In this document: positions 1-17,550 of the stretch, one piece after another
Numbering within the stretch: position 1 is the stretch's first letter
How the letters are laid out: each line of letters begins with the position of its first letter
Origin: Candidatus Helarchaeota archaeon
Lineage (GTDB): Archaea > Asgardarchaeota > Lokiarchaeia > Helarchaeales > RDOG01
Length of the DNA stretch: 64,000 nucleotides
Direction of reading: 5' to 3'
Assembly (NCBI GenBank): GCA_019058315.1
Contig: JAHPZH010000006.1
Coordinates: 64,001-128,000 of the forward strand
Notes under the pieces: generated by a model
Databases searched by the model: none
What the model was told of the DNA's origin: nothing
Seen by the model: only the letters and a program-made list of their open reading frames with translations
Translations under genes and position numbers: made by a program

Positions 1-925
1 AAATAATTTTTTTAGGAACATCAGGGACAGTTCCAACTGTTTCACGCAGTTTGCCTGCAATAATAATAAAAAGAGAAAATGATTTTTTGCTTTTTGATTG
101 CGGTGAAAAAAACTAATTAATTGTAGTTTTCACTAAGGCACACAACTTCAATTTAGGAAAGCAAAAATCAGTTTTTTTAAAATTAATAAGATTTTTCTTT
201 CACATTTACATGGCGATCATATTACTGGGTTACCTGGTCTAATTATGTCATTAGCTTTAGGTAAAAGAGAGAAAACTCTTACAATTTATGGACCTAATGG
301 GATTAAAGGATTTATAAATAAAGTTATTGATACAATGCATTTTGATTTAACTTATCCTTTAGAAATAGTTGAAATAGCTGGAGAAGAAAATTTTGAATTT
401 TTAAATTATAAAATTACTTGTTTTCCTTTAGAACATAGGATATTTACCTTAGGATATGTTATTGTAGAAAAACCAAAGGCAAAATTCGATGTTGAAAAGG
501 CGAAGTCATTAAAAATTCCAAAAGGTCCTTTATGGGGAAAATTGAAATCAGGTGAAAGTATTCATTTAAATAATGGGAGAGTTATCCAACCTTCCCAAGT
601 TTTAGGAAATATAAAACCTGGAAAAAAAATTTTATATTGCACAGATACTCGTCCTACAATTAAGACAAAAAATTTAAGCAAGAACGCAGATTTACTCATT
701 CATGATGGTATGTTTGAAGAGAATCTAAAAGAGTTCGCTACAATTGGAGGACATTCAACAGTAGTTGAAGCCGCAGAACTGGCTAAAGATTCGAAAGTAA
801 AAAAATTAATCTTATTCCATATAAGTTCTAGATATGAAAATAATAATTCTATTTTAGAACTTCAAGCAAAAAAAATTTTTCCTAATTCATTCATAGCTGA
901 AGATTTTATGAGAATTTTAGTTTAA
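1..925 (+). CDS. rnz: Ribonuclease Z, 5'-truncated by the window edge, intron-containing: join(<1..107,137..925)
   Basis: The frame from nt 3 reads [12 protein letters not shown]...LFDCGE. After removing 108-136 it continues GTQLQ...SHLHGDH and into ORF 245..925 (TDTRP, HST, HISSRY motifs). Confidence 0.95.
108..136 (+). other. 29-nt BHB intron in rnz mRNA
   Basis: Outer pairs TGC(99-101)/GCA(138-140), central helix GGTG(102-105)/CACT(131-134), bulges AA|A and AA|G, 7-bp intron stem AAAACTA/TAGTTTT. Removal restores DCGE-GTQ in frame. Confidence 0.9.
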
Positions 926-970
926 AACGGCATTTTAACAAAAATGGTTTAAATTCCTATAACATTTCTT

Positions 971-1264: not shown

Positions 1265-1439
1265 TTAAATGACCTTCTAATAGATTATTGCTAGTATAAA
1301 ATAAATCAATTTATTTTTATAAACTTATCAATTAACTTGCATATTCACTTTTCTGAATGCCTCTCTTTCAATTTTTAAATGCGCATTAAAAATTTAATAT
1401 TATTTACTTTCAAAAAAGTGACTGAGAGCTATTTAAAAA

Positions 1440-2642
1440 ATGATGAATAATAATTATAATATTCTAGAAGAAGAACTAAAAAAACATTCAATTTTTAAAG
1501 ATGAATCAAAACTTTCTTTTGATTATGTTCCTCTTTATTTACCTCATAGAAACGAAAAATTGAGACAAATAGCACAATTTTTTAAAGTAATTATTGAAAA
1601 ACCGGGGGGAATGAGTCAAAAACTAATTATTCACGGATCAAATGGAACAGGAAAAACAGCAGTAGTAAAAAGATTTGGTGCAATGATTGAAGAAACAGCT
1701 GAAAAAAGAGATATAAAATTAAAATTCTTACATTTGAATTGCAGAAAAAATAAAACTGAATATATGATATTAAAGAATATCATAAATGTTTTTAATAAAG
1801 CTATTCCAAAACGGGGATTTTCTTCGGAAGAATTACTACAAATTTTAATAGAAATTCTTGAATTAGATGATTATTTTTTAATTTTAACTCTTGATGATTT
1901 AGATATTAAGGAAAATCAATTATTATATGATTTAACACGTTTGATGGATGATGAATTAAATCCTATTCAAAGGCTTTCATTGATAATTATTGCTAAAGAC
2001 TTAAATTTTATAAAAACTTTAGAAAAAGGGACTATTAGTACATTACAAAAAAATCATATCTTCTTTGAAAAATATTCTTCTTCTCAATTATATGACATTC
2101 TAAAAATGCGGTGTGATGAAGCTTTTTATGACAATACAGTTTTAGATGAATCCTTATACTTAATTTCTGATATTGCTTCAGAATTTGGTGATGCGCGCTA
2201 TGCATTAGAATTACTTTGGCGTGCTGGAAAATATGTAGATATTAACCAAAGTCCGCAAATTTCTCCTGAATATGTCAGACAAGCACAATCACACATAAGC
2301 CCTGTAGTTAGATCCAATTTAATCAAAGATTTAACGTTAGATCAAAAATTGTTATTATTGACAATAGCTAGGCAATTTAAACACAAAGAAAAGGCTTATC
2401 TTAGTATGAAAGAAGTTGAAAATGGTTATATTTTAATTTGTGAAGAATATCAAACAAAAGCAAAAAAACATACGAAAATTTGGGAAAATATTCAAGAATT
2501 AAATAATTTAGGAGTAATTAATTCTAAATTATCTGGTCCTGGAATCCGGGGGAAAACAACATTAATTGCACTATCTGATGTGCCTTCAGAAACTATTGAA
2601 AATAATCTTATTTCTCAATTACAAAAAGAGATAGAAGTCTGA
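1440..2642 (+). CDS. cdc6: Orc1/Cdc6 family replication initiator
   Basis: DYVP..LPHR, Walker A GSNGTGKT, GDARYALELL, C-terminal winged helix. Confidence 0.93.
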   Translation: MMNNNYNILEEELKKHSIFKDESKLSFDYVPLYLPHRNEKLRQIAQFFKVIIEKPGGMSQKLIIHGSNGTGKTAVVKRFGAMIEETAEKRDIKLKFLHLNCRKNKTEYMILKNIINVFNKAIPKRGFSSEELLQILIEILELDDYFLILTLDDLDIKENQLLYDLTRLMDDELNPIQRLSLIIIAKDLNFIKTLEKGTISTLQKNHIFFEKYSSSQLYDILKMRCDEAFYDNTVLDESLYLISDIASEFGDARYALELLWRAGKYVDINQSPQISPEYVRQAQSHISPVVRSNLIKDLTLDQKLLLLTIARQFKHKEKAYLSMKEVENGYILICEEYQTKAKKHTKIWENIQELNNLGVINSKLSGPGIRGKTTLIALSDVPSETIENNLISQLQKEIEV

Positions 2643-2947
2643 TGGAATTAAAAGATGTTCTTTTAAACGATAATCTTCCATCTATAGATGAAATTTTTTC
2701 TTCTAGGGGAAGAATTAAAGTTTTATTGATTTTAGCAAAAGAGGGGGAATTAAACATTTCAGAAATCGCAAAACGTGCAAATTTAAATCATGGCTCTTGT
2801 TCTAATCATTTAAAATTTTTGGCAAATAAAAATATATTACAAGAGAAAGTTTTTGGAAGAATTAGAATTTATAGATTTAGAATTGAAAATGTAAAAATTA
2901 GAGCTTTAAAAAACTTGTTTGATCTTTGGGAATCATCAAGATTTTAA
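2642..2947 (+). CDS. ArsR-type winged-helix protein, translationally coupled to cdc6
   Basis: FSSRGRIKVL..L...GELNISEIAKR HTH pattern; TGATG stop/start overlap. Confidence 0.8.
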   Translation: MELKDVLLNDNLPSIDEIFSSRGRIKVLLILAKEGELNISEIAKRANLNHGSCSNHLKFLANKNILQEKVFGRIRIYRFRIENVKIRALKNLFDLWESSRF

Positions 2948-2993
2948 AAAATTTTATTTAAAAAATATTTTGAAATAGATTAAAATCGTCTAG

Positions 2994-3359
2994 TCATCTT
3001 AAAATGTTTTTAACTCTACGAGCTAAAGTTCCCAAATTAAATACTACAATACCTAAATTTTTTGTATTTGGAATTAATGAAAAAATAATTGCTTCATCAC
3101 CAGCAGGAATTAAAATAATAGAACCTTCATCAGAATCGATTATTAATTTTCTAACAGTTGTATTTAATAATTCTTTCATTGTTCGTTCACTAAGTATTGT
3201 TATATCAGCAGCCAAACCAGCTATTGAATCTTCATTAAGTTGATAATCATTAATTGATGCGATTATTAACCCATCTCTTGAAACTATTGCACTGATTTTA
3301 ACTGGTGTATTCGATTCAAATTCTCTTAATAGCTCGTTTAATAGAGATGCTTTGTTCAT
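2994..3359 (-). CDS. Roadblock/LC7 domain protein
   Basis: SAIVSRDGLIIAS...IAGLAA pattern. Start placed at MNKAS rather than the ORF-track start. Confidence 0.85.
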   Translation of the reverse strand: MNKASLLNELLREFESNTPVKISAIVSRDGLIIASINDYQLNEDSIAGLAADITILSERTMKELLNTTVRKLIIDSDEGSIILIPAGDEAIIFSLIPNTKNLGIVVFNLGTLARRVKNILR

Positions 3360-3707
3360 TACATCATATCTCCAAAAAATACGATTTAAATAATTACTAA
3401 TAAATAGATATAAAAAGCCAAACAATTTTTTTTATTGAAAAAAAAGTATATTTAGTTGAATAGAATTGTTATAGAGGACATTTTGCAAAATTTTGCATAT
3501 TTAATTGGAGTTTATATTTAATTATTTGATTTTTATATCTTAAAAAAAAAATTTATGCGTTTATGGGATTAAAATAAACTTATATATTATATTTTTTATT
3601 AAATGTTAATTGTTATCACAGTTTTCTAATTATAAAATACTTTACTGTCTTTAAATAAGATTGATAAAACAAAAATTTTCTATGCATTTTAGATTGCCAG
3701 TTATTAG

Positions 3708-4304
3708 GTGATTATAATGTCAAAAATATTTGAAACAAATTATAATGAAACAAAAATTTTAGTAATTCATGGCAGTATAATAGAATTAGAAGTTGATGCA
3801 ATAGTAAATGCTGCTAACAGTTTTATGGAAATGGGTGGTGGAGTAGCTAAAGTAATAAAAAATGCAGCTGGTCAAGAGGTTGAAGATGAGGCAATTAAAT
3901 TAGTAAAACAAATGGGAGGTCAATGCCCAATAGGAAAAGCAATCTTAACATCTGCGGGAAAATTAAAATCAAGAATCAAATTTATTATCCATGCACCAAC
4001 AATGACCAAACCAGTTGAACCTTCAAGTTTAAACCGAATTAAAAGTGCTGTAAGGGGGGTTATGCAAAGAGTTTATGAATCTAATTTAAAAGATCAAGGT
4101 ATAATTAAAAGTATAGCCTTTCCTGCTATGGGAACAGGTGCTGGAAAAATGCCTAGGAACAAAGCAGCACAAGCAATTGTAGATGGATTAATTAATTATT
4201 TTAATACCACAGTAAATATTTCTGTAGAATTAATAATCCTTTGTGATATTAATGAAGAGCAAGCGATAGCATTTAAGGACGCTTTAATAAACAGTATTAA
4301 TTAA
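3708..4304 (+). CDS. Macro domain (ADP-ribose binding/hydrolase) protein
   Basis: DAIVNAAN...GGGVA, IIHA, SIAFPAMGTG. Confidence 0.92.
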   Translation: MIIMSKIFETNYNETKILVIHGSIIELEVDAIVNAANSFMEMGGGVAKVIKNAAGQEVEDEAIKLVKQMGGQCPIGKAILTSAGKLKSRIKFIIHAPTMTKPVEPSSLNRIKSAVRGVMQRVYESNLKDQGIIKSIAFPAMGTGAGKMPRNKAAQAIVDGLINYFNTTVNISVELIILCDINEEQAIAFKDALINSIN

Positions 4305-4658
4305 GAAATTAAAATTTGTTTTTCTATATTTACTCTTAATGGTTTATTTTAGAAATTATATGATAATGTTAAAAATTTTCGAAGATTTAAATCAAAATTT
4401 ATTCAACTTTTTAAAAAATGTTTACAAAAAAAATCATTTCATAAATAGTTATTTTGAAATTGTTTGATATTATGCGCGCGAAAAACCTATTTCACCGATT
4501 GATCACCTTAATTTTTATGCAAATTTGGCATTTGTGCTTTGCCAAATTTTTCAATGACAGAACTAGTGCGACAAAAAATAAAAATACTTAAATATTTTAA
4601 TTGATTTCTTATAGTCTAATAGTTTAAAAAATTTTAAAGTCAATATGAGGTTAGAAAT

Positions 4659-4874
4659 ATGGCAAAAAAAAGATATTTTGCTTGGAGTCCTTTAAGAAGT
4701 TTAATGGCAGATGCTGGCGCAAAAATCGTATCCAGAGATGCAGTAGATCATTTGATTGGATGGTTGCAAGATAAAGCAGTTGAATTAACTAAAAGAGCCG
4801 CTGTACTCGCAAAACATTCCAAGAGAAAGAAAATTACTAAAGGCGATATCGATTTAGCAGTCAAAGGATATTAA
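4659..4874 (+). CDS. Archaeal histone
   Basis: 71 aa; AGAKIVSRDAV...AKHSKRKKITKGDI histone-fold motif. Confidence 0.9.
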   Translation: MAKKRYFAWSPLRSLMADAGAKIVSRDAVDHLIGWLQDKAVELTKRAAVLAKHSKRKKITKGDIDLAVKGY

Positions 4875-5016
4875 AATATATAAATAATTTATCTTAAATC
4901 TCATTTTTTTTTTAATTTTAATCTCTTCTAGAAACATTTATCTATATTAATTGATTTATGCATCTGCAAACTTTAAAAAATTTATTCAATTATTTAATTA
5001 ATCAAAAATTTAGATT

Positions 5017-5637
5017 TTAAAAACTAATAATTCCCTCTTTTTGATAGGCCCTTAATATACTTAAAATTTTTGAAGGATTGGAATTCATGTGTCTTGCTAA
5101 ATCATAAATTGAATTTTTTCCATTGATTAATCTGAATAATTTCCGTCTATTATTACGGATATTATCTTCATTATCAATATGTCTTTTTGGAATTATTTCT
5201 CGGAAATAACTATCTTTATGATGGGTTTTTTTGAAGGGTTGTAATAATAAGCCATCATTCTCTTTAAAATCGTTAAAAAATTGATTGATGATTGACTTAA
5301 TAGGTGTAAAATCTATTGATTCTTTTTGGTCTTCAATTTGTTTAATGATTACATTGGATATTTTAAGAAAAAGTCTATCAATATATGAATTTGCAAGCGA
5401 AGGCTCACAGCTAATAATAAACAAAAGATCAGATTTCTCAAAAAAAGAAAATTTAATACTTTCAGTAATATAAAATGTTGGAATTCCTAATCCAGTCTCC
5501 TTAGTAAAATTTGTTATAGCACTTAAAAATCCTGTGATTAACGTGTCATCAACGGATTTTCTAAGTTTAGAATTGCCTTCTTTATGATGATATATTGGCA
5601 ATCCGTCTTTGAGAATAAAAATATCTTGAATTTTCAT
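5017..5637 (-). CDS. Longin-like domain protein with C-terminal winged helix
   Basis: IFILKDGLPIY...LITGFLSAITNF longin pattern; C-terminal INGKNSIYDLA HTH. Confidence 0.65.
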   Translation of the reverse strand: MKIQDIFILKDGLPIYHHKEGNSKLRKSVDDTLITGFLSAITNFTKETGLGIPTFYITESIKFSFFEKSDLLFIISCEPSLANSYIDRLFLKISNVIIKQIEDQKESIDFTPIKSIINQFFNDFKENDGLLLQPFKKTHHKDSYFREIIPKRHIDNEDNIRNNRRKLFRLINGKNSIYDLARHMNSNPSKILSILRAYQKEGIISF

Positions 5638-5933
5638 CTTTAACCACTAGTGAAATGAATCTTATTAAGATAAGATCGATGTTATAAACATTTTAGATTT
5701 AATAATATCAGTAGAATATGCCTATAATATCTTAAAGAAGGAGATTATTAATCAAATTAAAACTGTTATTAACAGTTCCCTTTTAATACCATTATATTTA
5801 TTATTTTTCATTCCATATAATTATATGCTTATTAAAAAGTTTATTTTAATATGATAATGATTTAAATCTATAATGAAGTAATTATAACTGCTTATTTTAA
5901 CTTATTTAATGAAATTTTAAGATGGGTGATTAA

Positions 5934-8060
5934 TTGACAGAAAAATATGCAATAGAATCCAGTGAAAATATTATTAAAGCAAGAAGACTCGTTGTTAGGA
6001 CGACTAGTGGAGATGTTGAATTATTTGATTCCAAAAAAATTATACAAAGTTTAATTTCTGAGACAAGTATCAATGATAATGTAGCTCATAAGGTTACTGA
6101 TATGGTACTTAAAAGGATAATAAACGCAAAAATTCAATGGCTTTCAGGTCCGGCAATTAGGGAAATGTGTTGTTCGGTTTTAGCGGAAATTGGACTTTTA
6201 GAAGCACGTAAAAGATATACCCGAATTGGAATGCCCTTAATGGATTATGAAAATTTCATTGAAATAGGTATTAAAGAAAATGCAAATCAATATCAAAACC
6301 CTATGTCGATTCATAGCTGGTGTGCTGATAGGATTTCTTCTGAATATTCATTACTTAGATTATTAACTGAAGAACAATCAAAGGCACATTTAAAAGGTGA
6401 TATTCATATTCATATGCTGCCTTATTTTGATCTCCGTCCATTTTGCCAAGAATTTGATCTTCGAATTATTTTAAAAAATGGGTTACCCCCAGTTAATTGG
6501 CCATATTCGGCAGTATCAAAACCTGCAAAACATCCAATTGTAGCTTTTCTCCATGCTGCAAAATGGCTTGGTTTGATTACGGGTGAATTTTCAGGTGGGT
6601 TAGGTTATGATAATTTTACTGTATTTTTAGCACCATATATAAAAGGATTATCTGAAAAAGAAATTGAGCAAATGGCACAAAGTTTTGTTTTTGAATCAAA
6701 TCAAATTTATGCCTCACGAGGAGGACAAATACCTTTTACTTCGATTTCTTGTGTTCCAACAATACCTGATAATTTACGAGATGTACCAGCAATAAGTTTT
6801 GAGGGAAAAGTTGATGGTATTTATGGAGATTACGTAGATGAATGTAATGCACTTTTCAAAGCTTTAAGTAAGGTATATTTTAAAGGCGATGGAATAGGAC
6901 GCCTTTTTAATTTTCCTAAACATGAAATTAAATTAAAAAAAGAATGGATACGTGAATTTGAAGATGATTATTTATTAATAAGCGAAGAAACAGCAAAATT
7001 TGGAAATCCTTACTATTTAAATTTAGCTGCCGATTGGATGCCTGATGAAGTACATTCACAATGCTGTAGACTAATTTTAACTCCAGAAGGAATTAGAAAA
7101 ATTTGTGATGATCCTGAACTTTTTGATTGGTCCAAATCTTATATTAATTTAGGAAGTCTACAAAGTGTTAGCCTTAATCTTCCTCGTTATGCTTACATGT
7201 CTAAAGGCGATGAAAATAAATTCTTTGAAATTCTAGATGAATATATGCTACTTATAAGAGATATTTTGATGATTAAGAGAGAATTGGTTGCTAAAAGATT
7301 AGAATCTGGGTTATTACCTTTATGTTCCCGTCAAGTAGACAATGGTATTCGGCTCCTCGATTTACGAAAACAGTCAGTGAATATAGGATTTGTTGGTTTA
7401 AATGAATGTGTTTTATATATCACCAACCATGAATTACACGAAAATAATGAAGCTTATAGATTAGGAAAAAAAATATTAGAATATATGTCAAAGAAATGCG
7501 ATGAATTCACGACAGAAAAATCTTTTAAATTTTCTCTTTGGGAACAACCTGCAGAATCCACGGCAGGTCGTTTTGCTTATCTCGATTTAAAACATTATCC
7601 TAATTATGCTATTGTCCAAGGTAATCCAGAGCTTAATGCTGTCTATTATACAAATTCAGATCACCTTCGTGATTCCGCTGATATTCCACTTTTTGAACGT
7701 ATTCAAAAACAAAGCGAATTTCATCCAATTGTTCAAGGCGGAGTAATAACTCATGTTTGGTTAGGTGAATCTCACCCAGATCCCGAAGGACTTTGGAAAC
7801 TTACTAAAAAAATCGCATTTAATACTCCTACTGCATATTGGGCATATACAAAGGATTTTACTCAATGTCTTGAATGTCAAAAGTTTTTAAATGGTATTTA
7901 CACAACATGTCCAAAATGTGGTGCATCATCTGAAAAATTAGAATGGTGGAGTCGAATTACTGGATATTATAGTCGATTAACTGGCTGGAATGCTAGCAAA
8001 ATAGAAGAATGGAAATCAAGAAAACGATATAATTTTAATAAAATGCAAAAAACTGGTTAA
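5934..8060 (+). CDS. nrdD: Anaerobic (class III) ribonucleoside-triphosphate reductase with ATP cone
   Basis: N-terminal ATP cone, H..GDIHIH, SQCCR, EQPAESTAGRF, CxxC...CPxCG, glycyl-radical motif SRITGYY. Confidence 0.95.
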   Translation: MTEKYAIESSENIIKARRLVVRTTSGDVELFDSKKIIQSLISETSINDNVAHKVTDMVLKRIINAKIQWLSGPAIREMCCSVLAEIGLLEARKRYTRIGMPLMDYENFIEIGIKENANQYQNPMSIHSWCADRISSEYSLLRLLTEEQSKAHLKGDIHIHMLPYFDLRPFCQEFDLRIILKNGLPPVNWPYSAVSKPAKHPIVAFLHAAKWLGLITGEFSGGLGYDNFTVFLAPYIKGLSEKEIEQMAQSFVFESNQIYASRGGQIPFTSISCVPTIPDNLRDVPAISFEGKVDGIYGDYVDECNALFKALSKVYFKGDGIGRLFNFPKHEIKLKKEWIREFEDDYLLISEETAKFGNPYYLNLAADWMPDEVHSQCCRLILTPEGIRKICDDPELFDWSKSYINLGSLQSVSLNLPRYAYMSKGDENKFFEILDEYMLLIRDILMIKRELVAKRLESGLLPLCSRQVDNGIRLLDLRKQSVNIGFVGLNECVLYITNHELHENNEAYRLGKKILEYMSKKCDEFTTEKSFKFSLWEQPAESTAGRFAYLDLKHYPNYAIVQGNPELNAVYYTNSDHLRDSADIPLFERIQKQSEFHPIVQGGVITHVWLGESHPDPEGLWKLTKKIAFNTPTAYWAYTKDFTQCLECQKFLNGIYTTCPKCGASSEKLEWWSRITGYYSRLTGWNASKIEEWKSRKRYNFNKMQKTG

Positions 8061-8217
8061 AAAAATTAATATCTTCAAAAATTTCTATAAGTAATTTAGT
8101 TATTTTTAAATGAATGTTACTTTTAAGAATTTAAATACAAAAAAAAATTATTGATTTGATAAATTTTAAATATCATAGCTGATGTGAAACAATAATAAAA
8201 GGCTGAAAAGAATTGGT

Positions 8218-8325
8218 GGGCCGGTAGATCAGCCTGGTATGATCGCCACGCTTGCAACGTGGAGATTGAATATATTACAATTTATCAACCATATGTCCCG
8301 GGATCGAAGCCCGGCCGGTCCACCA
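8218..8325 (+). tRNA. tRNA-Ala(UGC) with a 30-nt intron at 45/46 (8265-8294)
   Basis: Cloverleaf with G3-U70 and encoded CCA. Helix GTGG/CCAT, bulges AG|A and AT|G; removal gives variable loop AGGTC. T-loop is ATCGAAG. Confidence 0.92.
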
Positions 8326-8338
8326 CCAAATAAACCAT

Positions 8339-8410
8339 GGCCGGAATAGTATAGTGGTAGTATGAGGGATTGTGGCTCCCTTGACTCGGGTTCAAATCCC
8401 GATTCCGGCC
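8339..8410 (+). tRNA. tRNA-His(GUG), intron-less, encoded G-1
   Basis: GCCGGAA/TTCCGGC acceptor stem, G-1:C73, anticodon GTG. Confidence 0.95.
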
Positions 8411-8426
8411 CTTTTTAAACCTTTAT

Positions 8427-8532
8427 GCGGGAGTGTCCGAGTTGGTCAAAGGAGCTGGGCTTAGGACCCAGTGGCGTAGGCCTGCATGGGTTCGAATGGA
8501 TAAAAGTCCCGAAAAACCCATCTCCCGCACCA
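8427..8532 (+). tRNA. tRNA-Leu(UAG) with a 19-nt intron at 59/60 (8497-8515)
   Basis: Long variable arm; BHB TTCG/CGAA, bulges AA|T and AA|A; encoded CCA. Confidence 0.92.
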
Positions 8533-8780
8533 AATATTAAATATTTTTTCTTATAATAATTATTTTACTTGTTGTTTCTAACAGTATTTATTTTGTGTAG
8601 ATGGCAGAATTCGAAATATGGAGAGCTTTATAATTTGGATATTATTAACAATCTCAACCAATAGAGTCTATTTTTTTCAGAAATGTTTAAAATTTAATGA
8701 TAATTTTTTAAAATATCCAATTAACTATCTAATGTTTTAATTAAATTTTAAAATCTAAAATAATCTTTTTTAATCTTAAT

Positions 8781-9767
8781 TTGGATATTATTTATTGTGG
8801 TATTATGGGCAAAGATTACAAAATTTTAGTATTAGGCTCTTTAGTATTTGATAATTTAATGCATTATCCTGATTTTTTTGAAAAAAATATTGTCATTGGG
8901 GAACGAAATAATATAGATGGTTCTTTTGTTGTTGATAAATTTGAGATTTGCAGAGGTGGGACTGCAGGAAATATCTCCTATAATCTGGGAAAATTGAATA
9001 TAAAAAATATATTAATTTCAGTAGCTGGTAAAGATTTTTTAGAATATGGGAAGCTCTTAGAAAAAATGGGAACAGATTTAAGAGTAGATATTTATGAAAA
9101 AGAAAACACTGCAGCTTGTTTTATAATTTATGATAAAGATCATGATAAAATTAACATTTTTTGTGCGGGAGCACTTCAAAATGCTTATAAAATTAAAATA
9201 TCAGAAAAATTATATCCTAATGAGATTATTAAAATTGCAATAAATGCACCAAATCCTATTGATTCAATGAAAAATTTTGCTTTAGAATTAGAAAAATTAA
9301 AAATCCCAATGGTTTTTGATCCTGGACAACAAATAAATGAATTTTCAAGAGATGATTTACTAGAAATATTGAAAAAATCAGAATATCTTATATTAAATGA
9401 ATCAGAGTTAGAAATTTTAAAAAAGAAAACCAAATTAAATGAAGAACAAATCACTGAATTGGTAAATAACATTATAGTTACTTTTGGAGCTAAAGGGTCA
9501 GAAATTTATCAAATTGACGAGAAAATTACTATACCTGTGGCAAAACCTAAAAAAATAATTGATACAACTGGAGCTGGAGATGCTTATAGGGCAGGTTTAT
9601 TATGTGGCATTTTTTATAATATCAGTTTAGAAGACTCATGCAAATTGGGGTCGATAATTGGTTCTTTTGCTGTAGAATCACCAGAACCTCAAAATCAAGA
9701 TTATGATTTTAAAGATATTAAAAATAGATATGAAGAAAATTTTGGCAAGTTTCCTTTAGATTATTAA
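8781..9767 (+). CDS. PfkB-family carbohydrate/nucleoside kinase
   Basis: GGTAGNI and DTTGAGDAYRAG signatures. Confidence 0.92.
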   Translation: MDIIYCGIMGKDYKILVLGSLVFDNLMHYPDFFEKNIVIGERNNIDGSFVVDKFEICRGGTAGNISYNLGKLNIKNILISVAGKDFLEYGKLLEKMGTDLRVDIYEKENTAACFIIYDKDHDKINIFCAGALQNAYKIKISEKLYPNEIIKIAINAPNPIDSMKNFALELEKLKIPMVFDPGQQINEFSRDDLLEILKKSEYLILNESELEILKKKTKLNEEQITELVNNIIVTFGAKGSEIYQIDEKITIPVAKPKKIIDTTGAGDAYRAGLLCGIFYNISLEDSCKLGSIIGSFAVESPEPQNQDYDFKDIKNRYEENFGKFPLDY

Positions 9768-10774
9768 AAGAAAAAAGTTTTTTGTGCTTGAGAATATTTT
9801 TGGTAATTTAAAATTTGGTCATAACCTGCATGTGAAGAAAGAGGAAAAGATTTTACACCAAAATTTTGAGTTTTAGCCCAACCAGTTGCAACCATTATAG
9901 AATTTTTACTATATTTTGCCTCTAATTCTCTAATTTTTCGAATATAATAGTAAGGCAATAATATAACAGACTTGGAATTACTACTTTTATAAGTTCCATT
10001 CCCACTTTTTGAATTAAAATATGAAGTTAAATTTCTAATCTTCCTTTTATTTTCTAATGGATGGCTTTTATATTGAAATTTTCCTAAAGGTAAATAAGAA
10101 GAATGAATTTCGTTTGCTTTATAGATTGACGGATGAGTAATTAAACTGCAACTTAATGTAGAATAGTTTAAAAGTGCCGTAATTTCTTGTTGAACTCCTA
10201 ATCTCTGGGCAATGATAATTATTTCTTCATTTTCTTCTAATGTTTCCTTAAACCAGTTAAGAATTTTAGGATATAAGGTTTTTCTAGTAGGAAAAACATA
10301 TTCTTGAGAAAAGTAAGTATCATCTGTAATAAAAATCCCATTCTTACATTTTAATAATGGAGCTTTACTCATTCCAAAACGACTTTCAAGACAAAAGTCC
10401 CCAGTATATAAAATAGTTTTATTATTCAATTTAATTCTAAACTGAAAACTTCCTAAACAATGTCCTGCATGAAAGGCACTTATTTTACAACCTTGAATAT
10501 TTATTTCATCTTCAGGACAGCTATATGGTTCTATAATTTTAAAATTTGTAATTTTACAATTTTGTTTCAAATTTGATGATAATAAATCAAATGTAGGTCG
10601 GCTCATGATTTTCAGTGGATTAATTTTTTCCACATTTTTAATATGATCTACATGAGCATGACTGATAAGGATTAGATCAGCATCATTTGCTGAGGAGATT
10701 GTTGTAGGATCTATTACAATGTGAATTCTTTTTGAAATTAGATGCATGCCTCGATTTTTTATAACTTTCAACAA
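9764..10774 (-). CDS. Metallo-beta-lactamase/beta-CASP family nuclease
   Basis: SHAHVDH, AGHCLGS, YTGDF, PLSSHA. Confidence 0.85.
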   Translation of the reverse strand: MLKVIKNRGMHLISKRIHIVIDPTTISSANDADLILISHAHVDHIKNVEKINPLKIMSRPTFDLLSSNLKQNCKITNFKIIEPYSCPEDEINIQGCKISAFHAGHCLGSFQFRIKLNNKTILYTGDFCLESRFGMSKAPLLKCKNGIFITDDTYFSQEYVFPTRKTLYPKILNWFKETLEENEEIIIIAQRLGVQQEITALLNYSTLSCSLITHPSIYKANEIHSSYLPLGKFQYKSHPLENKRKIRNLTSYFNSKSGNGTYKSSNSKSVILLPYYYIRKIRELEAKYSKNSIMVATGWAKTQNFGVKSFPLSSHAGYDQILNYQKYSQAQKTFFF

Positions 10775-10847
10775 AAATCAACTACTTTTTTTATAGATAT
10801 TAATAAATTAAAAATAACGGTATTTTGTCGAAGGTGAAATTATTTAA

Positions 10848-11759
10848 ATGCTAGAATTTATTGTGAAAATAAGAGATGAAATATATAAGAAAAATAATAA
10901 GGAATTTGAATTACAAATTCAAAAATTAGTTAATAATAAAATGAAAAAATTCTATAAGTTCTATAATATTACTGAAAAAATACCAATTTTAATATATTTT
11001 CATGATTTTATCTATGAACTCTTCCCATTAGCGATGATAGAGCCCAATTTCAAAAATAATGTATTATATATTAAGAGTATCTGGTTTCAATTTTGCCCAT
11101 CAAGATGGTACTTTACAACTGATGAAATTTTATGGAATACATTATTACATGAAGGATTACATTATAAACATCAATTTAATGAAAAATTTAAACGGCTTTT
11201 TCTCGAATTTCATGGGGATTTGTTGGATGCACTATGTGATATACATTTAATTCCGTTTATAAAGGAATTAAAAATAGAAAAAAGTGAATCAGAAAGGATG
11301 TTGATTGGACGTATATTAAATTTAATGGAAAGAGAAAATCGTATTCTATTGGTAAAAAATTTCTGCGAAAATAAAAATGTTGACGATTTAATAATACATT
11401 TTCAGTTAAATAAACCTTCAATTTATCTTTTATCGGTTCTATTCTATTCGAAACGTTACATAGAATTAATTAGTAAAAAGTCTGAAATTTTTAATCTTAT
11501 ATTAGAACAAATAAAAAGGCAAGATAAAGAATTCAAAAAGAAAGAAGAAAGATTTAATTCTGTATTTGAATCAGCATTATTCCTTAAAAACGGAAAAGAA
11601 ATGGAGAGTATACTTATGAAATTAAATTCATTTAAAAATGTTCTTTTGAAAAACAATGTCAATTATAAAATAAGATTTGATTTAAACTTCAAAAAAAATT
11701 ATAGAGCCCGAAAAACTAATTCACCTAGATCAAATAATTTTAATTTTGAGTTGGTATAA
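10848..11759 (+). CDS. Hypothetical protein with an HExxH motif (possible zincin)
   Basis: LLHEGLHY; good SD (GAAGGTGA); 3' end overlaps the convergent gene. Confidence 0.55.
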   Translation: MLEFIVKIRDEIYKKNNKEFELQIQKLVNNKMKKFYKFYNITEKIPILIYFHDFIYELFPLAMIEPNFKNNVLYIKSIWFQFCPSRWYFTTDEILWNTLLHEGLHYKHQFNEKFKRLFLEFHGDLLDALCDIHLIPFIKELKIEKSESERMLIGRILNLMERENRILLVKNFCENKNVDDLIIHFQLNKPSIYLLSVLFYSKRYIELISKKSEIFNLILEQIKRQDKEFKKKEERFNSVFESALFLKNGKEMESILMKLNSFKNVLLKNNVNYKIRFDLNFKKNYRARKTNSPRSNNFNFELV

Positions 11760-12817
11760 CGAATTACTCGCTCAAAAGTAGATTCACAAGTTGGACACAT
11801 CGTTACCAAAGCTTCTGCACCTGTCGCTTCTGCAGCTTCTAACCGCTTTGACGCAATATCCATACTCAGATCTGCGTTAGCTGAAAGCATACCCCCTCCA
11901 GCCCCACAACAACTTGACTCATACTTATTATTTTGCATTTCAAGTAGTTGAATTCCGGGAATACTTGATAAAATAATTCTGGGGGGTTCTAGAATTCTCA
12001 TATGTCGACCTAAATCACAAGGATCATGCCAAGTAACTTTCAATTTTATTTCATTTTGAAAATTAACTTTTCTTTTTTCTAATAATTCAGCAAGAACTTC
12101 AGTGTAATGTAGAATTGTGGGATTAAAATTTGTATCTAGCTTACTATATTTATTTTTTAAAGTTTTATAACAACCAGGGCAAGGAGTAATGATTTTTTCA
12201 ATTTTATTTTCATTAAAATATTCAATATTTTTTTGCGATAATGTGTGAAACTTTTCCAAATATCCCGTTGTGGATAATAATGCTCCACAACAAACTTCAT
12301 TTTCACCAAGATAATTGAGTTTTAAACCTATTTTAATCAAGGAACTATAAATTTTTCTTAAACGATCAGGTTGTAAGTATGGATAGACACATCCAGCAAA
12401 AAATAAAGTATTTGAGGTTTTAGAAACTGGTAACCCTTCTGACCATTTTGAACGATTTTCATTAGATTCTTTAAAAGGATTGTTATATTCGATTATATTT
12501 TTAACAGTTATTCTGTGATATTTATTTTCAAAGCCCATATTTATTAAATCTGCTCTTAAAGATTCAATTAAATCGACATTATTTAAAGCACAACGATATA
12601 AACAATAACCACAAGTTGTACATAAGCTAATACATTCAATCAAATCATTATTAGGTTTTATAGATCCCTCAATTAATCCTCGGGCAATAAGCATCTTACC
12701 TCGGCAACTAAAAGCTTCATATCGAAGTTCTGAATAAACAGGACAATTTTCGCGACAAAATCCACAACGAGTTCTATTACAAGTATATATATTTTCCTTT
12801 AAATCATCTATATACAT
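11699..12817 (-). CDS. Fe-S oxidoreductase, HdrD/GlpC family (CCG domains)
   Basis: Two 4Fe-4S Cys clusters and two CCG domains (EVCCG, HDPCDLGR, CCGAGGG). Confidence 0.9.
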   Translation of the reverse strand: MYIDDLKENIYTCNRTRCGFCRENCPVYSELRYEAFSCRGKMLIARGLIEGSIKPNNDLIECISLCTTCGYCLYRCALNNVDLIESLRADLINMGFENKYHRITVKNIIEYNNPFKESNENRSKWSEGLPVSKTSNTLFFAGCVYPYLQPDRLRKIYSSLIKIGLKLNYLGENEVCCGALLSTTGYLEKFHTLSQKNIEYFNENKIEKIITPCPGCYKTLKNKYSKLDTNFNPTILHYTEVLAELLEKRKVNFQNEIKLKVTWHDPCDLGRHMRILEPPRIILSSIPGIQLLEMQNNKYESSCCGAGGGMLSANADLSMDIASKRLEAAEATGAEALVTMCPTCESTFERVIRYTNSKLKLFDLGELVFRAL

Positions 12818-12970
12818 TTTTAATCATTTTAATAATTAATTAATTAATTTCTTCTATTGGAAAACGATATTTTTAATATATTTTTTTTTCTAATATTCTA
12901 AAAGCAAAATTTTTTAAAATTATTGATTCTTTTTTAGTAATAACAAAAATTATTATTTATTCCTAAATGA

Positions 12971-13429
12971 ATGAGGTGTTTTGTAACGACAGGTTTAAAA
13001 TCACCAAAAGGCGAATTTGCAGGAAGATTACTTATTAGGAAGAGAAAAAAATTCCGTTGGAAAGATATTAGATATAAAAGAAGAAAATTGAAGTTGGATG
13101 TAAAATCTGATCCATTAGAAGGTGCTCCTCAAGCACGTGGTATAGTTCTAGAAAAAATTGGGATAGAAACAAAACAACCAAACTCGGGAATACGTAAGTG
13201 TGTTCGTATTCAACTTATTAAAAATGGTAAACAAATAACTGCATTTCTCCCTGGTGATGGAGCATTAAATTTTATAGACGAACATGATGAGGTTTTAGTT
13301 GAAGGTATCGGAGGAGCGAAAGGGCGGGCTGTAGGAGATTTACCTGGTGTAAGATGGAAAGTTATTAAGGTAAATAATGTCGGGCTCGAATCGCTTTTAA
13401 CAGGTAAGAAAGAGAAACCAATCAGATAA
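12971..13429 (+). CDS. rps12: 30S ribosomal protein uS12 (S23e-type); true start possibly at 12986
   Basis: [25 protein letters not shown]. Confidence 0.96.
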
Positions 13430-13475
13430 ATTATTTGGAATTATTATTTCAAATATTATAAACTATTTAGCATTT

Positions 13476-14531
13476 TTAAATAGGTTTTCCTGGAAAAATA
13501 TTATTTAATTTGATATTTGATAGTTTAATTATAGTAGGGGCAACATCAAGAGTTGAATAAATTCGGGAAGAATTATATTTATATTTAAGTTCATAATTTT
13601 TACTCATAATAATAAGAGGAACGTACAATTCTTCTTTTAGATATCCCCCATGACTTCCGTTTAAATTTTCCTTTTCAAATTCAATTCCTGTATTTGCAGA
13701 TATCACGATATCTCCAGTCCTTTTATGATATAATTTAATATCTTTTGTTTGAGATTTAAGAAAAATTTTGTCAATTTCTTTTATATGGTTGAGTTCTTCC
13801 ATTATTTCTTTATGATCTTTATTTAAATAAATATGACATGCACGATGGGATTCTAAAAATTGGCCTGATATTCCTACATTTTGAAAATAACGTTTTAAAT
13901 TAAATCTTTTTGATACTTTGGTCATACCATGGTCTGCAGTGATTATCATTATTAATTTATCTTCAACAATTTCATAAATTTGTGATAAAAATTGATCACA
14001 TTTAGATATTTCATTTAGATATTTTTTATTATCTGGACCAAATGTTTCACCATACCCATCAACTCCTGCAAAATTAATTACCCCAAATTTGATATTATAG
14101 TTCTTCAAAAATTTCATAGTTTTATCAAAAATTAATTCATCTCTTTTTTCTAACGATATTTCATTTAGCTCTTGCATAGGCATTATATAATCCGCTCCTT
14201 TTGTTATAGGTTCTGCCACAGCCATGGTTTTTGGTGAATTAAGCATTTCAAATAGAGTATGAGATTGAATATATTCAGAAGGGTTATAATAGTCAAAATG
14301 TTTTACTTTTTTATCATTTTTATCAAAGAATTGATTTCCAATCATTCCATGTTGTTCGGGAAAAGTGCCAGTTACAATTGACGAGTGTCCAGTATAAGTT
14401 GCTGTTGGAAATACTGTCTTACAATTAAAAGTTATAAATCCTTTTTCACTTAAAGAATCAATAAAAGGAGTATGAGCTTTTATATATGAATTTATTGCAC
14501 ATCCGTCCAAAATAAAAAGAAGAATAATCAA
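13476..14531 (-). CDS. Alkaline phosphatase / nucleotide pyrophosphatase superfamily protein
   Basis: ILDG, FPTAT..GH, TADHG, GSHG. Confidence 0.85.
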   Translation of the reverse strand: MIILLFILDGCAINSYIKAHTPFIDSLSEKGFITFNCKTVFPTATYTGHSSIVTGTFPEQHGMIGNQFFDKNDKKVKHFDYYNPSEYIQSHTLFEMLNSPKTMAVAEPITKGADYIMPMQELNEISLEKRDELIFDKTMKFLKNYNIKFGVINFAGVDGYGETFGPDNKKYLNEISKCDQFLSQIYEIVEDKLIMIITADHGMTKVSKRFNLKRYFQNVGISGQFLESHRACHIYLNKDHKEIMEELNHIKEIDKIFLKSQTKDIKLYHKRTGDIVISANTGIEFEKENLNGSHGGYLKEELYVPLIIMSKNYELKYKYNSSRIYSTLDVAPTIIKLSNIKLNNIFPGKPI

Positions 14532-14838
14532 GAAAATCCCATTTTAATAAAATATTCAATTTTTAATTTTCAAATTTTAGATAGAATTCTAGATTTTTAA
14601 ATCAACTTTTAAATAGAATTATATTTTTTTAAGGAAAAAAAGGTAAATAGATGAAAAAATTCAAAGTTTTTGAATAATTCATTGAATTAAAGAAAATAAT
14701 ATGAATGAAAATAATGCTAAATTAGAAGATTTTAAAATAAATTCAATCTCAACGTTATATTTTCAAAATTTGTGGGTATTAAATATTAAAAATTCTAATC
14801 ATTAATAAAATAAAATTAAGTCAATAAGTGGAGTTTCG

Positions 14839-15216
14839 ATGTCAGTTTTATTAAAAACTTATAAAATTGATAAATTAAAAGAATATTTAGAGGATTTAAA
14901 TACGAAAAACGGAAATAAAGGATGTATCTTATGCTCAGAAGAAGGATTAGTAGTCATATCAACAAAGAATGGAAATAATGAATTAGATTTTGACTCATTA
15001 GCAGCTATGGGAGCAACATTATTAAGTATTATGAATGATCAAATTTTTTTAGATGTCATAATATCATATGAAAATAAGAAAGTCTTTATCCGCAAAATCG
15101 ATGGCGAAATATGTAATTTTATATTCATTAATATATTTGAGACTAATAAAAGATATTTTAGGCGAGATGTAAATAAAACAATTAAAAAAATTAGCAAACT
15201 TTTAACATTATCCTAA
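14839..15216 (+). CDS. Roadblock/LC7-like protein
   Basis: ILCSEEGLVVIS...LAAMGA. Confidence 0.7.
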   Translation: MSVLLKTYKIDKLKEYLEDLNTKNGNKGCILCSEEGLVVISTKNGNNELDFDSLAAMGATLLSIMNDQIFLDVIISYENKKVFIRKIDGEICNFIFINIFETNKRYFRRDVNKTIKKISKLLTLS

Positions 15217-15225
15217 AAATATATT

Positions 15226-15363
15226 TGGTGCAGCTGCCGAGATTTTCGGAATAAATTTAAAATAATCTATTCTTTCGAACCCGGGTCAGAGGCTTGGGAG
15301 GCTTCCGTAAATTGACCGATAATGGTCAATTTGCCCCGTCCTAACCAACTAGACTACAGCTGC
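15226..15363 (-). tRNA. tRNA-Gly(CCC) with two introns: 29/30 (15303-15333) and 59/60 (15243-15273)
   Basis: GCAGCTG/CAGCTGC acceptor stem with ACCA. Removing both 31-nt hairpin inserts gives a full cloverleaf. Confidence 0.88.
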
Positions 15364-15398
15364 ATTATTCTCATTATTAGATAAAGATAAATTATTAT

Positions 15399-17550
15399 TT
15401 AAAAAAAATCGGCTTTTGGTATTTCAGCTTTTCTACCTTTTTTTATACGAATGTCTGAAATTATTTTTTGAGCGCTATCATAGGAAATAAATTCCCAATG
15501 AGAAAAAACTGTTTGCCAGAATGCTTGTCCTGCAGTTTTTGAACGAATATCAGTAGATAGATTAAATGATTCTTTAACTGGAATTAGACCAGTAATGTAT
15601 GAATAAGAATCTTTTTGTTCAATATTTAGAATTTTGCTTTTCCTTTGTAATAATAAAGCTGTAATAACTCCTATTAGATTTGTAGGAACTTGGATTTGAA
15701 TCTTATAAATTGGCTCAAAAATAGTAGGTTCTGATTTTAAAAAAGCGCTGTAAACCGCTCTTTTACCCATTAACATAATTTGAAGCGGATCGACTTCTAA
15801 AGTATTTTTATCAATTTTTAATAAATGGATATTTATTTGCAATCCTTTTATTGGTTCTTCGCATAAAGGTCCTGCATTTAGAGCCATTTTAATACCCTTT
15901 ATAATAATTTCTTTGATTTTATCATCAATTTCTTGGCTTAAATCATTAATAATTAGATTATTATTGTAATCTATTGCTAGAATCTTCTTATGTTTTAAAA
16001 TTTCTTTAATTCTTTCTTCGTTTATTGGTTCTACTGAAAGTTTGATTTGATTCAAATTATTTTGACTTAAAGTTGAAATTATTGGGCTCTTTATTTTAAT
16101 TCCTTCTCTGTAGACTACAATTGGATCGGACATTAATATGTCAATCCCAAAATCTTTTATTTCATTAGCAATGATTTCTAGATGTAATTGTCCGATTCCA
16201 GAAATCAAATATTCCCCTGTATCTTCATTAATATCGATTTTTATATCGGGATCGTTTATTTTTATTTTATTTAAAATATCTAGCATTTTAGGTAATTCCT
16301 TTGGATGTTTGGGTTCAATAGAAACTGTTATAACAGGATCTGATACATATTTGATATTTTCAAATGGGTCAATTATTTCTTTAAACTCACTATTAGTTAA
16401 TGTTTCTCCAACTATTGCCTCTGAGAGGCCTATAAAAGCTCCAATATTACCTGCTGTAAGAGAATTAACAATTTCTCTTTTATGTCCCATTGAAATGAAA
16501 ATTTTTAAAACTCGATTAATGTCTTTCGCAGTTAATAAATAGACTTCATCACCTGAATTAATGGTTCCAGAAAATATACGTCCTATTGATATTTTTCCTA
16601 CATGTTTGTCAAATAATATCTTATGAATACAAATAATTAATGGTCCATTTTCATTACATTTTTGCATATTTTGTGCTAAAGCTGAATTTAAATCGCCTTT
16701 CCAAATTTTTTTAATTCTATAAGTTTGTGCAATTTTAGGACTTGGCAAATGATTAATTATCATATTTAATATACATTTATCTAAAGGTAGAATTTCACTT
16801 AATATCTCAATTTTGTTTATTCCATTTTTATAATAATTAAAAATATTATCAAACTTTAGTTTCTTATTTTTCATGATATTTAATGTAAAACCCCAACTAG
16901 GATATAAAGCGCATCCAAATCCTACATTATTCATTTCTGGAATTATTTTCCATTTATCTTTAAATTCATTTTCAGCATAAAGTTCAATATAATCGTTAAA
17001 TTTATCTATAATATTTTGAAAATAATTTTGAATTTCATTAGAGTTTAATTTTAATTCTTTTATTAAACGATCAACTTTATTTATATACAGAATTGGTTTT
17101 ATACGTTCTTGCAAAGCTTGTTTTGTTACAATTTCTGTCTGAATTTGGCATCCTTCAACTGCATCTACAACTACAATGGCACCATCAATTGCTCTTAACG
17201 CTCTAGATACTCTGGCAGTTAAATCCACTTAGTCTATAAAAATAATTTTATTTTTATATATGACCTGGAGTATCTATCAGATTAATAATGAATCTCTCAT
17301 TAGCTATTTGATACAATAATGAAATATTTGCAGTCTTAACTGTAATTCCTCTTTTTTGTTCAATATCTAAATAATCCAGAGCCCGAAGAGAACCTGCTAA
17401 ATTTGAAGATATTACTTTCCCTAATGCTAAAAGGCTATCAGTTAAAGTAGTCTTTCCATGGTCTATATGCGCTATTATACCAATATTGCGTATGTTGTCC
17501 TTTTGTTTCATTGTTTCTAAAATTTCATTAATTTTTTTTGATTTTACCAT
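15399..17550 (-). CDS. Elongation factor 2 paralog (aEF-2p-like, no diphthamide His), intron-containing: complement(join(15399..17228,17260..17550)), 706 aa
   Basis: AHIDHGKTT, RGIT, DTPGH|VD, NKVD and domain III-V motifs. The two ORF-track pieces join in frame after removing 17229-17259. Confidence 0.92.
17229..17259 (-). other. 31-nt BHB intron in the EF-2 paralog mRNA
   Basis: Minus strand: outer pairs TCCA/TGGA, central helix GGTC/GACT, bulges AT|A and AA|G, 10-bp stem TATAAAAATA/TATTTTTATA. Confidence 0.9.

What the first reader, a model, noticed from the sequence alone, without database searches (positions are those of the whole stretch)
17222..17270. Second mRNA BHB intron, in the G3 motif of the EF-2 paralog
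Seen: 31 nt (17229-17259) interrupt DTPGH^VD with an in-frame stop and frameshift. They form a strict BHB (TCCA/TGGA, GGTC/GACT, bulges AT|A and AA|G, 10-bp stem). This intron shares its architecture with the rnz intron: phase 0, GGT(G/C)AN|A...(C/G)ACTAA|G. Inference: two such introns within 17 kb suggest that mRNA splicing by EndA is widespread in this genome, and that many apparent split genes or pseudogenes in such lineages may be spliced genes.
Basis: partly seen in the sequence, partly recalled or inferred. Interest (0 to 1): 0.88.

Follow-up and report, generated by a model that had tools for sequence, protein, structure and literature searches.

The report
tRNA-type intron splitting an EF-2-like gene
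A 31-base insert shaped like an archaeal tRNA intron splits the GTP-binding motif of an EF-2-like gene in a probable Helarchaeales (Asgard) archaeon, so the mRNA almost certainly has to be cut and rejoined; the papers I could search show this for only one archaeal coding gene (cbf5).

Summary
On the minus strand, 31 nt (17259..17229) interrupt DTPGH|VD of a 706-aa EF-2-family GTPase. The lowest-energy fold is a strict bulge-helix-bulge (BHB). Cutting after the second base of each bulge rejoins the aEF-2 profile without a gap.

The comparative evidence is strong:
- Eight other sequences (seven distinct; Helarchaeales-type and Jordarchaeia) carry a 28-33 nt insert at exactly this site. The interiors are unrelated, but the BHB is kept and one central pair changes from U-A to C-G.
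- Codon third positions that form the outer helix are fixed in every intron-bearing gene and vary freely in the 33 intron-free loci.
- Both exons are under purifying selection (dN/dS 0.07-0.24).
- Two relatives carry a second BHB intron that this genome lacks.
- The genome encodes alpha-like and beta-like EndA subunits and RtcB.

The rnz intron (29 nt, window 108-136) is also confirmed.

A genome-wide scan gave five solid cases (EF-2 paralog, rnz, rrp41, HDAC, HTH-CBS) and two probable ones. Several genes are spliced, but they are well under 1% of genes.

There is no RNA evidence for this organism. In a Jordarchaeia homologue, one public contig lacks exactly the intron, but I could not establish that run's library type.

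Earlier notes of this scan reported such introns on other Asgard DNA. I found no paper describing them.

The parts
17260..17550 (-). Exon 1 of the EF-2 paralog (97 codons, ATG to ...DTPGH). It carries G1 (AHIDHGKT), switch I (RGIT) and the first part of G3.
   Evidence: GTP_EFTU profile positions 2-79; TIGR00490 positions 2-96.
17229..17259 (-). 31-nt BHB intron, phase 0, with an in-frame TAA at its second codon. It is a single copy in the genome.
   Evidence: an insert sits at the same site in 8 other sequences.
15399..17228 (-). Exon 2 (609 codons plus stop), from VDLTAR... through domains II-V of EF-2/EF-G.
   Evidence: GTP_EFTU 82-151, GTP_EFTU_D2, EFG_III, EFG_IV, EFG_C; TIGR00490 from position 98 at residue 2.
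17224..17269 (-). Complete hBHBh' motif. Outer helix 17269-17266 with 17227-17224. Central helix 17265-17262 with 17234-17231. Bulges 17261-17259 and 17230-17228. Inner 10-bp stem 17258-17249 with 17244-17235. Predicted cuts after 17260 and after 17229.
   Evidence: Lowest-energy fold; pair counts on 9 orthologues (98.1% of cells paired, 0 of 500 shuffles as high).
108..136 (+). 29-nt BHB intron in rnz (RNase Z), phase 0, between DCGE and GTQ. Outer helix UGC/GCA, central helix GGUG/CACU, bulges AA|A and AA|G.
   Evidence: intron-free orthologues.
1..107 (+). rnz exon 1. Its ATG lies 3 nt before the window, at G000:C6:63998.
   Evidence: TIGR02651 positions 1-37.
137..925 (+). rnz exon 2 (262 codons plus stop).
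   Evidence: TIGR02651 positions 37-300, 302 bits.

Best explanation
The 31 nt are an archaeal bulge-helix-bulge intron inside the coding sequence of a divergent EF-2-family GTPase. In the primary transcript, exon bases (UCCA GGUC before the intron, UGGA after it) pair with the last bases of the intron (GACU). Together with an A/U hairpin inside the intron, this forms a strict hBHBh' motif. The heteromeric splicing endonuclease (a catalytic alpha subunit and a His-less beta subunit, both encoded in the genome) would cut after the second base of each 3-nt bulge. RtcB would then join the exons to give ...CCA GGU CAU|GUG GAU..., which restores DTPGHVD and a 706-aa reading frame. Unspliced mRNA ends translation two codons into the intron. 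Shown here: the structure, the exact restoration of the frame, conservation with covariation, selection on both exons, constraint on exon synonymous sites, and presence of the enzymes. Inferred: the cleavage and ligation themselves in this organism, and any regulatory use.
For: (1) The lowest-energy fold is a strict BHB. (2) Removing exactly 31 nt joins TIGR00490 profile position 96 to 97/98 and gives a 706-aa frame with G1-G4 intact. (3) An insert sits at the same site in L048, L049, L050, L054, G001/L019, L053, L051/L052 and L056/L057. Lengths are 28-33 nt and there are at least four unrelated interiors. (4) On the alignment of nine, 98.1% of cells pair against 86.8% in shuffles (0 of 500 as high) and 19-45% when the partner is slid. 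The central pair at columns 11-43 is U-A in 7 and C-G in 2, and three inner pairs change on both sides. (5) All nine intron-bearing genes read ACT CCA GGY CAY|GTG GAT. None of the 33 intron-free loci has the full TCCA/TGGA complement, and their third positions vary. (6) dN/dS is 0.07-0.19 for exon 1 and 0.16-0.24 for exon 2, and the spliced frames are 706-713 aa in five orthologues. (7) L049 and L050 carry a second BHB intron of 40 and 41 nt at EQ|KRGIT, which G000 and L048 lack precisely. (8) EndA alpha-like (Tyr/His/Lys present) and beta-like (His replaced by Ser) proteins and RtcB are encoded. Asgard archaea are reported to have the broad-specificity (alpha-beta)2 type (PMC5829648). (9) In a Jordarchaeia homologue, contig L055 equals L056 minus exactly the 31-nt intron. 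The flanks are 100% and 99.94% identical, and L055 keeps the intron-adapted exon codons. (10) The intron is unique in the genome, so it is not a repeat family.
Against: No RNA data set holding this locus was listed. No spliced read or circular intron has been seen for this organism. The fold z-score alone is moderate (-2.45, with 5 of 200 shuffles as good). The outer helix never varies, because it lies in conserved codons, so it gives no covariation of its own. Five of the nine sequences are close relatives that share one intron lineage, so the shuffle statistics overstate independence. I could not establish the library type of the run behind the intron-free Jordarchaeia contig, so it may be a DNA polymorphism rather than a transcript.
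Confidence: 0.88

Rival explanations
1. The gene is truly split. The 98-aa and 609-aa reading frames are translated separately, the second from the GTG at the exon 2 boundary, and assemble into a two-piece GTPase without RNA splicing.
For: Exon 2 begins with GTG, which ORF listing takes as a start codon. Public annotations call the two pieces as separate genes.
Against: The break lies inside the G3 motif. This model does not need the BHB, its covariation or the fixed synonymous sites in the exons. In L049 and L050 a second insert would leave a 30-aa middle fragment. Insert length and interior vary while the cut sites stay exact.
Confidence: 0.05
2. The insert is a small hairpin insertion in a decaying pseudogene, or an assembly artefact.
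For: The insert has an in-frame stop and shifts the frame. The genome bin has 6.6% estimated contamination.
Against: dN/dS is 0.07-0.24 on both exons, and the spliced frames are full length in five orthologues. The same insert occurs in independent assemblies from NCBI, ENA, JGI and Logan. All GTPase motifs are intact.
Confidence: 0.02
3. The ribosome bypasses or frameshifts over the 31 nt (translational hopping), and the hairpin serves as the bypass signal.
For: A stable hairpin directly follows the last sense codon, as in the known bypass of phage T4 gene 60 (from memory).
Against: There are no matching take-off and landing codons (CAU before the insert, GUG after it). The conserved part is the BHB geometry with 3-nt bulges, not a hopping signal. 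The same architecture occurs in tRNA-type introns and in four other genes with different codons at the boundaries.
Confidence: 0.02
4. The insert is a BHB intron, but splicing is conditional. Retention of the intron would act as an off-switch for this EF-2 paralog, by analogy with HAC1/XBP1.
For: An in-frame stop lies within 1-3 codons of the 5' splice site in every orthologue, so unspliced mRNA gives only a short product. An accessory translation GTPase is a plausible target for regulation.
Against: Early stops are expected by chance in A/T-rich inserts. Housekeeping genes (rnz, rrp41) carry the same kind of intron. I have no expression data.
Confidence: 0.15

Closest known systems
cbf5 pre-mRNA intron of Crenarchaeota (Desulfurococcales, Sulfolobales; Watanabe 2002, Yoshinari 2006, Yokobori 2009 = PMC2738675)
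   Same: It is a BHB-type intron inside a protein-coding sequence. It is removed by the tRNA splicing endonuclease of the heteromeric (alpha-beta)2 type. Its presence and absence are lineage-specific, and it leads to mis-called split genes.
   Different: The host gene here is an EF-2-family GTPase, split in the G3 motif. The lineage is Asgard, probably Helarchaeales, and also Jordarchaeia. The motif is a strict hBHBh', whereas cbf5 introns often have relaxed motifs (PMC2738675). At least five genes per genome are affected here, not one. Splicing has not been shown experimentally here.
Archaeal tRNA introns (BHB at 37/38 and at non-canonical positions)
   Same: They share the geometry (two 3-nt bulges, a 4-bp helix, cuts after the second bulge base), the size class (about 30 nt) and the enzymes. 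Two tRNA genes of 105-106 nt in this window (Rfam hits) appear to carry inserts of about 33 nt; one sits outside the anticodon loop.
   Different: Half of the motif is built from coding exon sequence, so it constrains synonymous codon positions. The product is an mRNA.
BHB intron in the 5' UTR of HVO_1309, Haloferax volcanii (PMC7714728)
   Same: It is an EndA substrate in an mRNA. It was verified there by circRNA-seq and in vitro cleavage.
   Different: That intron lies in the untranslated leader and does not interrupt a reading frame.
HAC1/XBP1 unconventional mRNA splicing in eukaryotes (IRE1 plus tRNA ligase/RtcB; from general knowledge)
   Same: It is non-spliceosomal. An endonuclease and the tRNA ligase act on a small intron in a coding sequence, and its removal changes the frame.
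   Different: The endonuclease is IRE1 and recognises twin stem-loops, not a BHB. The splicing is a stress-regulated switch. No homology is implied.

Membership tests
Archaeal BHB intron (EndA substrate) | Two 3-nt bulges on opposite strands, separated by a 4-bp helix | tested here: met
   The lowest-energy fold and the centroid show it. The central helix is 100% paired in 9 orthologues.
Archaeal BHB intron (EndA substrate) | Flanking helices h and h' (strict hBHBh') | tested here: met
   The outer helix is 4 bp and the inner helix 10 bp. In L053 and L056 the inner helix next to the bulge is weaker.
Archaeal BHB intron (EndA substrate) | Cuts after the second base of each bulge give a functional product | tested here: met
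   Removal of exactly 31 nt joins TIGR00490 position 96 to 97/98 and restores DTPGHVD.
Archaeal BHB intron (EndA substrate) | Splicing endonuclease and RtcB ligase encoded in the genome | tested here: met
   Two PF01974 proteins are found, one alpha-like and one beta-like. RtcB scores 582 bits.
Archaeal BHB intron (EndA substrate) | Structure maintained in evolution by compensatory change | tested here: met
   the central pair is U-A in 7 and C-G in 2, and three inner pairs change on both sides. No shuffle of 500 reaches the observed pairing.
Archaeal BHB intron (EndA substrate) | Excision seen in RNA (spliced mRNA or circular intron) | tested here: inconclusive
For the Jordarchaeia homologue, a contig lacks exactly the intron, but the library type is unknown to me.
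Canonical archaeal EF-2 (TIGR00490 equivalog) | Score at or above the curated cut-off of 738.45 bits | tested here: not met
   The exons score 112.4 and 543.7 bits, about 656 in total.
Canonical archaeal EF-2 (TIGR00490 equivalog) | Diphthamide loop HxDxxHRG in domain IV | tested here: not met
   The loop reads KIDKNTLEVDPLQ here, against HEDPIHRGPAQ in Jordarchaeia, Freyarchaeia and Bathyarchaeia EF-2. It is also absent in L019, L048-L050, L053 and L054.
Translational GTPase (GTP_EFTU, PF00009) | G1, switch I, G3 and G4 motifs intact | tested here: met
   AHIDHGKT, RGIT, DTPGH (after splicing) and NKVD are present.

The most novel reading that the evidence does not exclude
Splicing of mRNAs by the tRNA endonuclease may be a regular part of gene expression across Asgard archaea. 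On this reading, introns are gained repeatedly at exon sites that happen to offer a short inverted repeat. The DTPGH|VD site of EF-2-family genes would be such a hot spot, or an ancient intron, shared by Helarchaeales-type and Jordarchaeia genes. The closest prokaryotic relatives of eukaryotes would then already have interrupted protein genes and a protein-only mRNA splicing pathway, with codon usage around the introns shaped by RNA structure.
Probability: 0.45. Interest if true: 0.88.

Novelty: new member of a known kind. Interest (0 to 1): 0.75.

Why it matters
In the papers I could search, endonuclease-dependent splicing inside an archaeal coding sequence is documented only for cbf5 in Crenarchaeota, plus one intron in a 5' UTR (PMC2738675, PMC7714728). 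Here a translation-factor paralog, RNase Z, the exosome subunit Rrp41, a deacetylase and a transcription factor in one Asgard genome all need it.

This matters in three ways:
- Gene callers split or truncate these genes. Public records list the EF-2-like gene as 613-636 aa.
- The exons carry half of the splicing signal, so RNA structure constrains codon choice.
- It gives a testable example of interrupted protein genes in the archaeal lineage nearest to eukaryotes.

Tried and rejected
I therefore have no read-level check.
- Genome-wide scan by motif plus ORF joining. Raw hBHBh' pattern hits were 134,334, against 135,013 in a mirrored-geometry control. After the ORF-joining filter the counts were 2601 against 2600. 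A relaxed motif with a coding-score filter was also no better than the control. The pattern alone is noise in this A/T-rich genome.
- An excess appears only when the BHB must also agree with the lowest-energy fold. The counts were then 2 against 0, 4 against 0 and 7 against 1.
- Candidates rejected by eye as non-coding junk or neighbouring genes: C5:1029771-1029787 (17 nt), C3:242822-242854, C3:51785-51802, C9:54937-54996 and others.
- The 'TAA inside' flag on the EF-1alpha-like hit at C10:100044-100544 is not an intron. DAPGHRDF is uninterrupted there.
- ARAGORN with the intron option gave an unreliable tRNA census, which I did not use.
- I could not find the library type of SRR28530379.
- Literature searches found no report of Asgard mRNA BHB introns.

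Full report
**Observation.** The gene lies on the minus strand. Exon 1 (17550..17260) encodes 97 residues ending in DTPGH. Then come 31 nt (17259..17229), then exon 2 (17228..15399), which starts with VDLTAR and runs 609 codons to the stop. The insert is not a multiple of three and has TAA as its second in-frame codon.

It has an outer helix UCCA/UGGA, a 4-bp helix GGUC/GACU, 3-nt bulges AUA and AAG on opposite strands, a 10-bp A/U stem and a loop AAAU. The energy is -11.5 kcal/mol, z = -2.45, and 5 of 200 shuffles fold as well. Each bulge lies 3' of the central helix on its own strand. This is the geometry of the tRNA 37/38 intron (from general knowledge).

Pfam and NCBIfam place exon 1 on aEF-2 profile positions 2-96 and exon 2 from position 97/98 onward. 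Cutting after the second base of each bulge therefore restores the protein without gain or loss of a residue.

**What the gene is.** The spliced product (706 aa) has G1, switch I, G3 and G4 intact and all EF-G/EF-2 domains. Its summed score on TIGR00490 is about 656 bits, below the cut-off of 738. The domain IV loop that carries diphthamide reads KIDKNTLEVDPLQ instead of HEDPIHRGPAQ. All its close orthologues lack that loop as well. A second EF-2-like gene of 811 codons lies on contig C5. 'EF-2 paralog' is therefore a fair name.

The closest database relatives are labelled Helarchaeota (86% identity). The genome is 5.8 Mb in 12 contigs.

**Comparative evidence.** This is the core of the case.
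- The only other genome of the same family among those searched (G001, 46% protein identity) has a 33-nt insert at exactly DTPGH|VD. Its interior is unrelated, and GACC pairs with GGTC.
- Contigs encoding proteins 66-86% identical (L048, L049, L050, L054) carry 32-nt versions of the G000 intron. Their loops differ, and the 3' strand of the central helix reads GACC, GACU, GAUC or GAUU. All of these pair with GGUC through Watson-Crick or G.U pairs.
- L053 has a 30-nt insert with another interior.
- Two Jordarchaeia genes have inserts of 28 and 31 nt at the same site. There the protein is a canonical aEF-2 with HEDPIHRG.
- In the Jordarchaeia genes the glycine codon is GGC instead of GGT, and the intron partner is G instead of A. 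A U-A pair has become C-G.
- On the alignment of nine sequences, 98.1% of cells pair, against 86.8% in column shuffles (0 of 500 as high) and 19-45% when the partner is slid. Three of the four inner pairs examined change on both sides.
- Five of the nine sequences share one intron lineage, so these numbers overstate independence. Even so, at least four unrelated interiors keep the same geometry.

**Constraint on the exons.** All nine intron-bearing genes read ACT CCA GGY CAY|GTG GAT. The third positions of the Thr, Pro and Val codons are exactly the bases needed for the outer helix.

In 28 intron-free loci of the same class, the Pro codon is CCA, CCT, CCG or CCC, and the next residue is mostly Leu. 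The three order-level relatives with Val use GTG, GTC and GTA. Intron-free Jordarchaeia-like and Freyarchaeia genes read ACA CCG GGC CAT GTT and ACC CCG GGA CAT GTT. None of the 33 intron-free loci has the full TCCA/TGGA complement. RNA structure therefore shapes codon choice only where the intron is present.

**Selection and the pseudogene question.** After the predicted splicing, five orthologues give open frames of 706-713 codons. dN/dS is 0.07-0.19 for exon 1 and 0.16-0.24 for exon 2. That excludes decay.

L049 and L050 also carry a second BHB intron of 40 and 41 nt between EQ and KRGIT, with central helix GAAC/GUUC. G000 and L048 lack it precisely. This is a natural presence/absence test of the predicted boundaries.

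The intron has no other copy in the genome within 4 mismatches, so it is not a repeat family.

**Machinery.** The genome encodes two endonuclease-family proteins that are 27% identical. One keeps the catalytic Tyr, His and Lys. The other has Ser in place of the His, as expected of a structural beta subunit. RtcB is also present. Asgard archaea are reported to have the (alpha-beta)2 enzyme with the L1 insert that gives broad specificity (PMC5829648). That enzyme type has been linked to the cbf5 mRNA intron (PMC2738675).

**Indirect RNA-level hint.** For the Jordarchaeia gene, the Logan contig from run SRR28530379 (L055) equals those from SRR28530378 and SRR28530382 (L056, L057), except that exactly the 31-nt intron is missing. 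The flanks are 100% identical over 1469 nt and 99.94% over 3417 nt. L055 keeps the intron-adapted codons ACT CCA ... GTG, unlike species that lack the intron in DNA.

This fits a spliced transcript or a very recent loss. I could not learn the library type.

**The rnz intron and the wider claim.** rnz starts 3 nt before the window. A 29-nt insert at 108-136 separates DCGE from GTQ. It reads GGUGAA|A...CACUAA|G and is phase 0. The TIGR02651 profile covers 1-37 and then 37-300. Its BHB lies 1.4 kcal/mol above the lowest-energy fold. All five family- and order-level relatives with a match, including G001, have uninterrupted frames of 295-310 codons. The two I read (G001 and G005) give FDAGE|GTQ. 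This intron is therefore specific to G000 among the genomes searched.

My genome-wide scan shows that the BHB pattern with ORF joining is no better than a mirrored-geometry control. When the BHB must also agree with the lowest-energy fold, the real geometry wins by 4 to 0 and by 7 to 1.

Five cases lie in conserved domains:
- the EF-2 paralog (31 nt);
- rnz (29 nt);
- rrp41 (32 nt), with RNase_PH profile 1-59 then 64-129;
- an HDAC-family gene (32 nt), with Hist_deacetyl profile 1-151 then 154-295;
- an HTH-CBS regulator (33 nt).

One is a 29-nt insert after DLDGT of a HAD hydrolase. The other is a 16-nt insert in a Cys/His-rich protein.

Several genes therefore need splicing, but the verified number is a handful out of several thousand. 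The scan misses relaxed motifs and short first exons.

**Comparison with what is known.** The mechanism is that of the cbf5 intron. PMC7714728 states that cbf5 is the only other BHB intron reported in an archaeal mRNA besides its own 5' UTR case. PMC2738675 states that splicing has not been confirmed for any gene other than cbf5. Four literature searches found nothing on Asgard protein-gene BHB introns. A 2026 preprint on Asgard tRNA introns does not mention mRNA.

Earlier notes of this scan report the same phenomenon in this genome and in other Asgard genomes. Those are unchecked leads, except where I tested them here.

**Verdict.** Excision in this organism remains inferred. I rate it a new member of a known kind, with high interest because several genes of an Asgard genome are involved.

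Noticed in passing
L049:1337-1376 and L050:1337-1377 (orthologues of the window gene): A second BHB intron (40 and 41 nt, central helix GAAC/GUUC, bulges AA|A) splits EQ|KRGIT in switch I of the same EF-2 paralog in two relatives. It is absent from G000 and L048.
   Followed up: partly
window 8218-8322 (+) and 61269-61374 (-): Rfam finds two tRNA genes of 105-106 nt that ARAGORN missed. Each appears to carry an insert of about 33 nt. In the first (anticodon GCA), the insert lies after the anticodon arm, not at 37/38.
   Followed up: partly
window 925-15399, compared with G002:C140, G004:C107 and G005:C115: In three order-level relatives, rnz and the EF-2 paralog are direct neighbours. In G000 about 14.5 kb lies between them, including the tRNA genes at 8.2-8.4 kb.
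   Followed up: no
G000:C5:121873-124110 (-): The other EF-2-like gene (811 codons) reads HEDPTHTRFGQ where canonical EF-2 has HEDPIHRGPAQ. Neither EF-2-family gene found in this 94%-complete genome has the full diphthamide loop consensus.
   Followed up: no
G000:C6:32233-32261 (-) and G000:C6:38360-38375 (-), upstream of the window: A 29-nt insert after DLDGT of a HAD hydrolase has a relaxed BHB and a 14-codon first exon. A 16-nt mini-insert in a Cys/His-rich protein has outer helix CCC/GGG and central helix GCGU/ACGU. Both restore long frames when removed.
   Followed up: partly
P0002, P0004, P0005, P0009, P0011, P0015, P0017 (public records): Public annotations list these EF-2-family genes as 613-642 aa proteins, with the 97-98 aa first exon called as a separate small GTP_EFTU gene. 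Gene calling is systematically broken at BHB introns.
   Followed up: yes
all intron-bearing orthologues (alignment A1): Every version of the G3-site intron has an in-frame stop within one to three codons of the 5' splice site (ATA TAA, TAG, TGA, TGT TAG, AAC AAT TAG).
   Followed up: no
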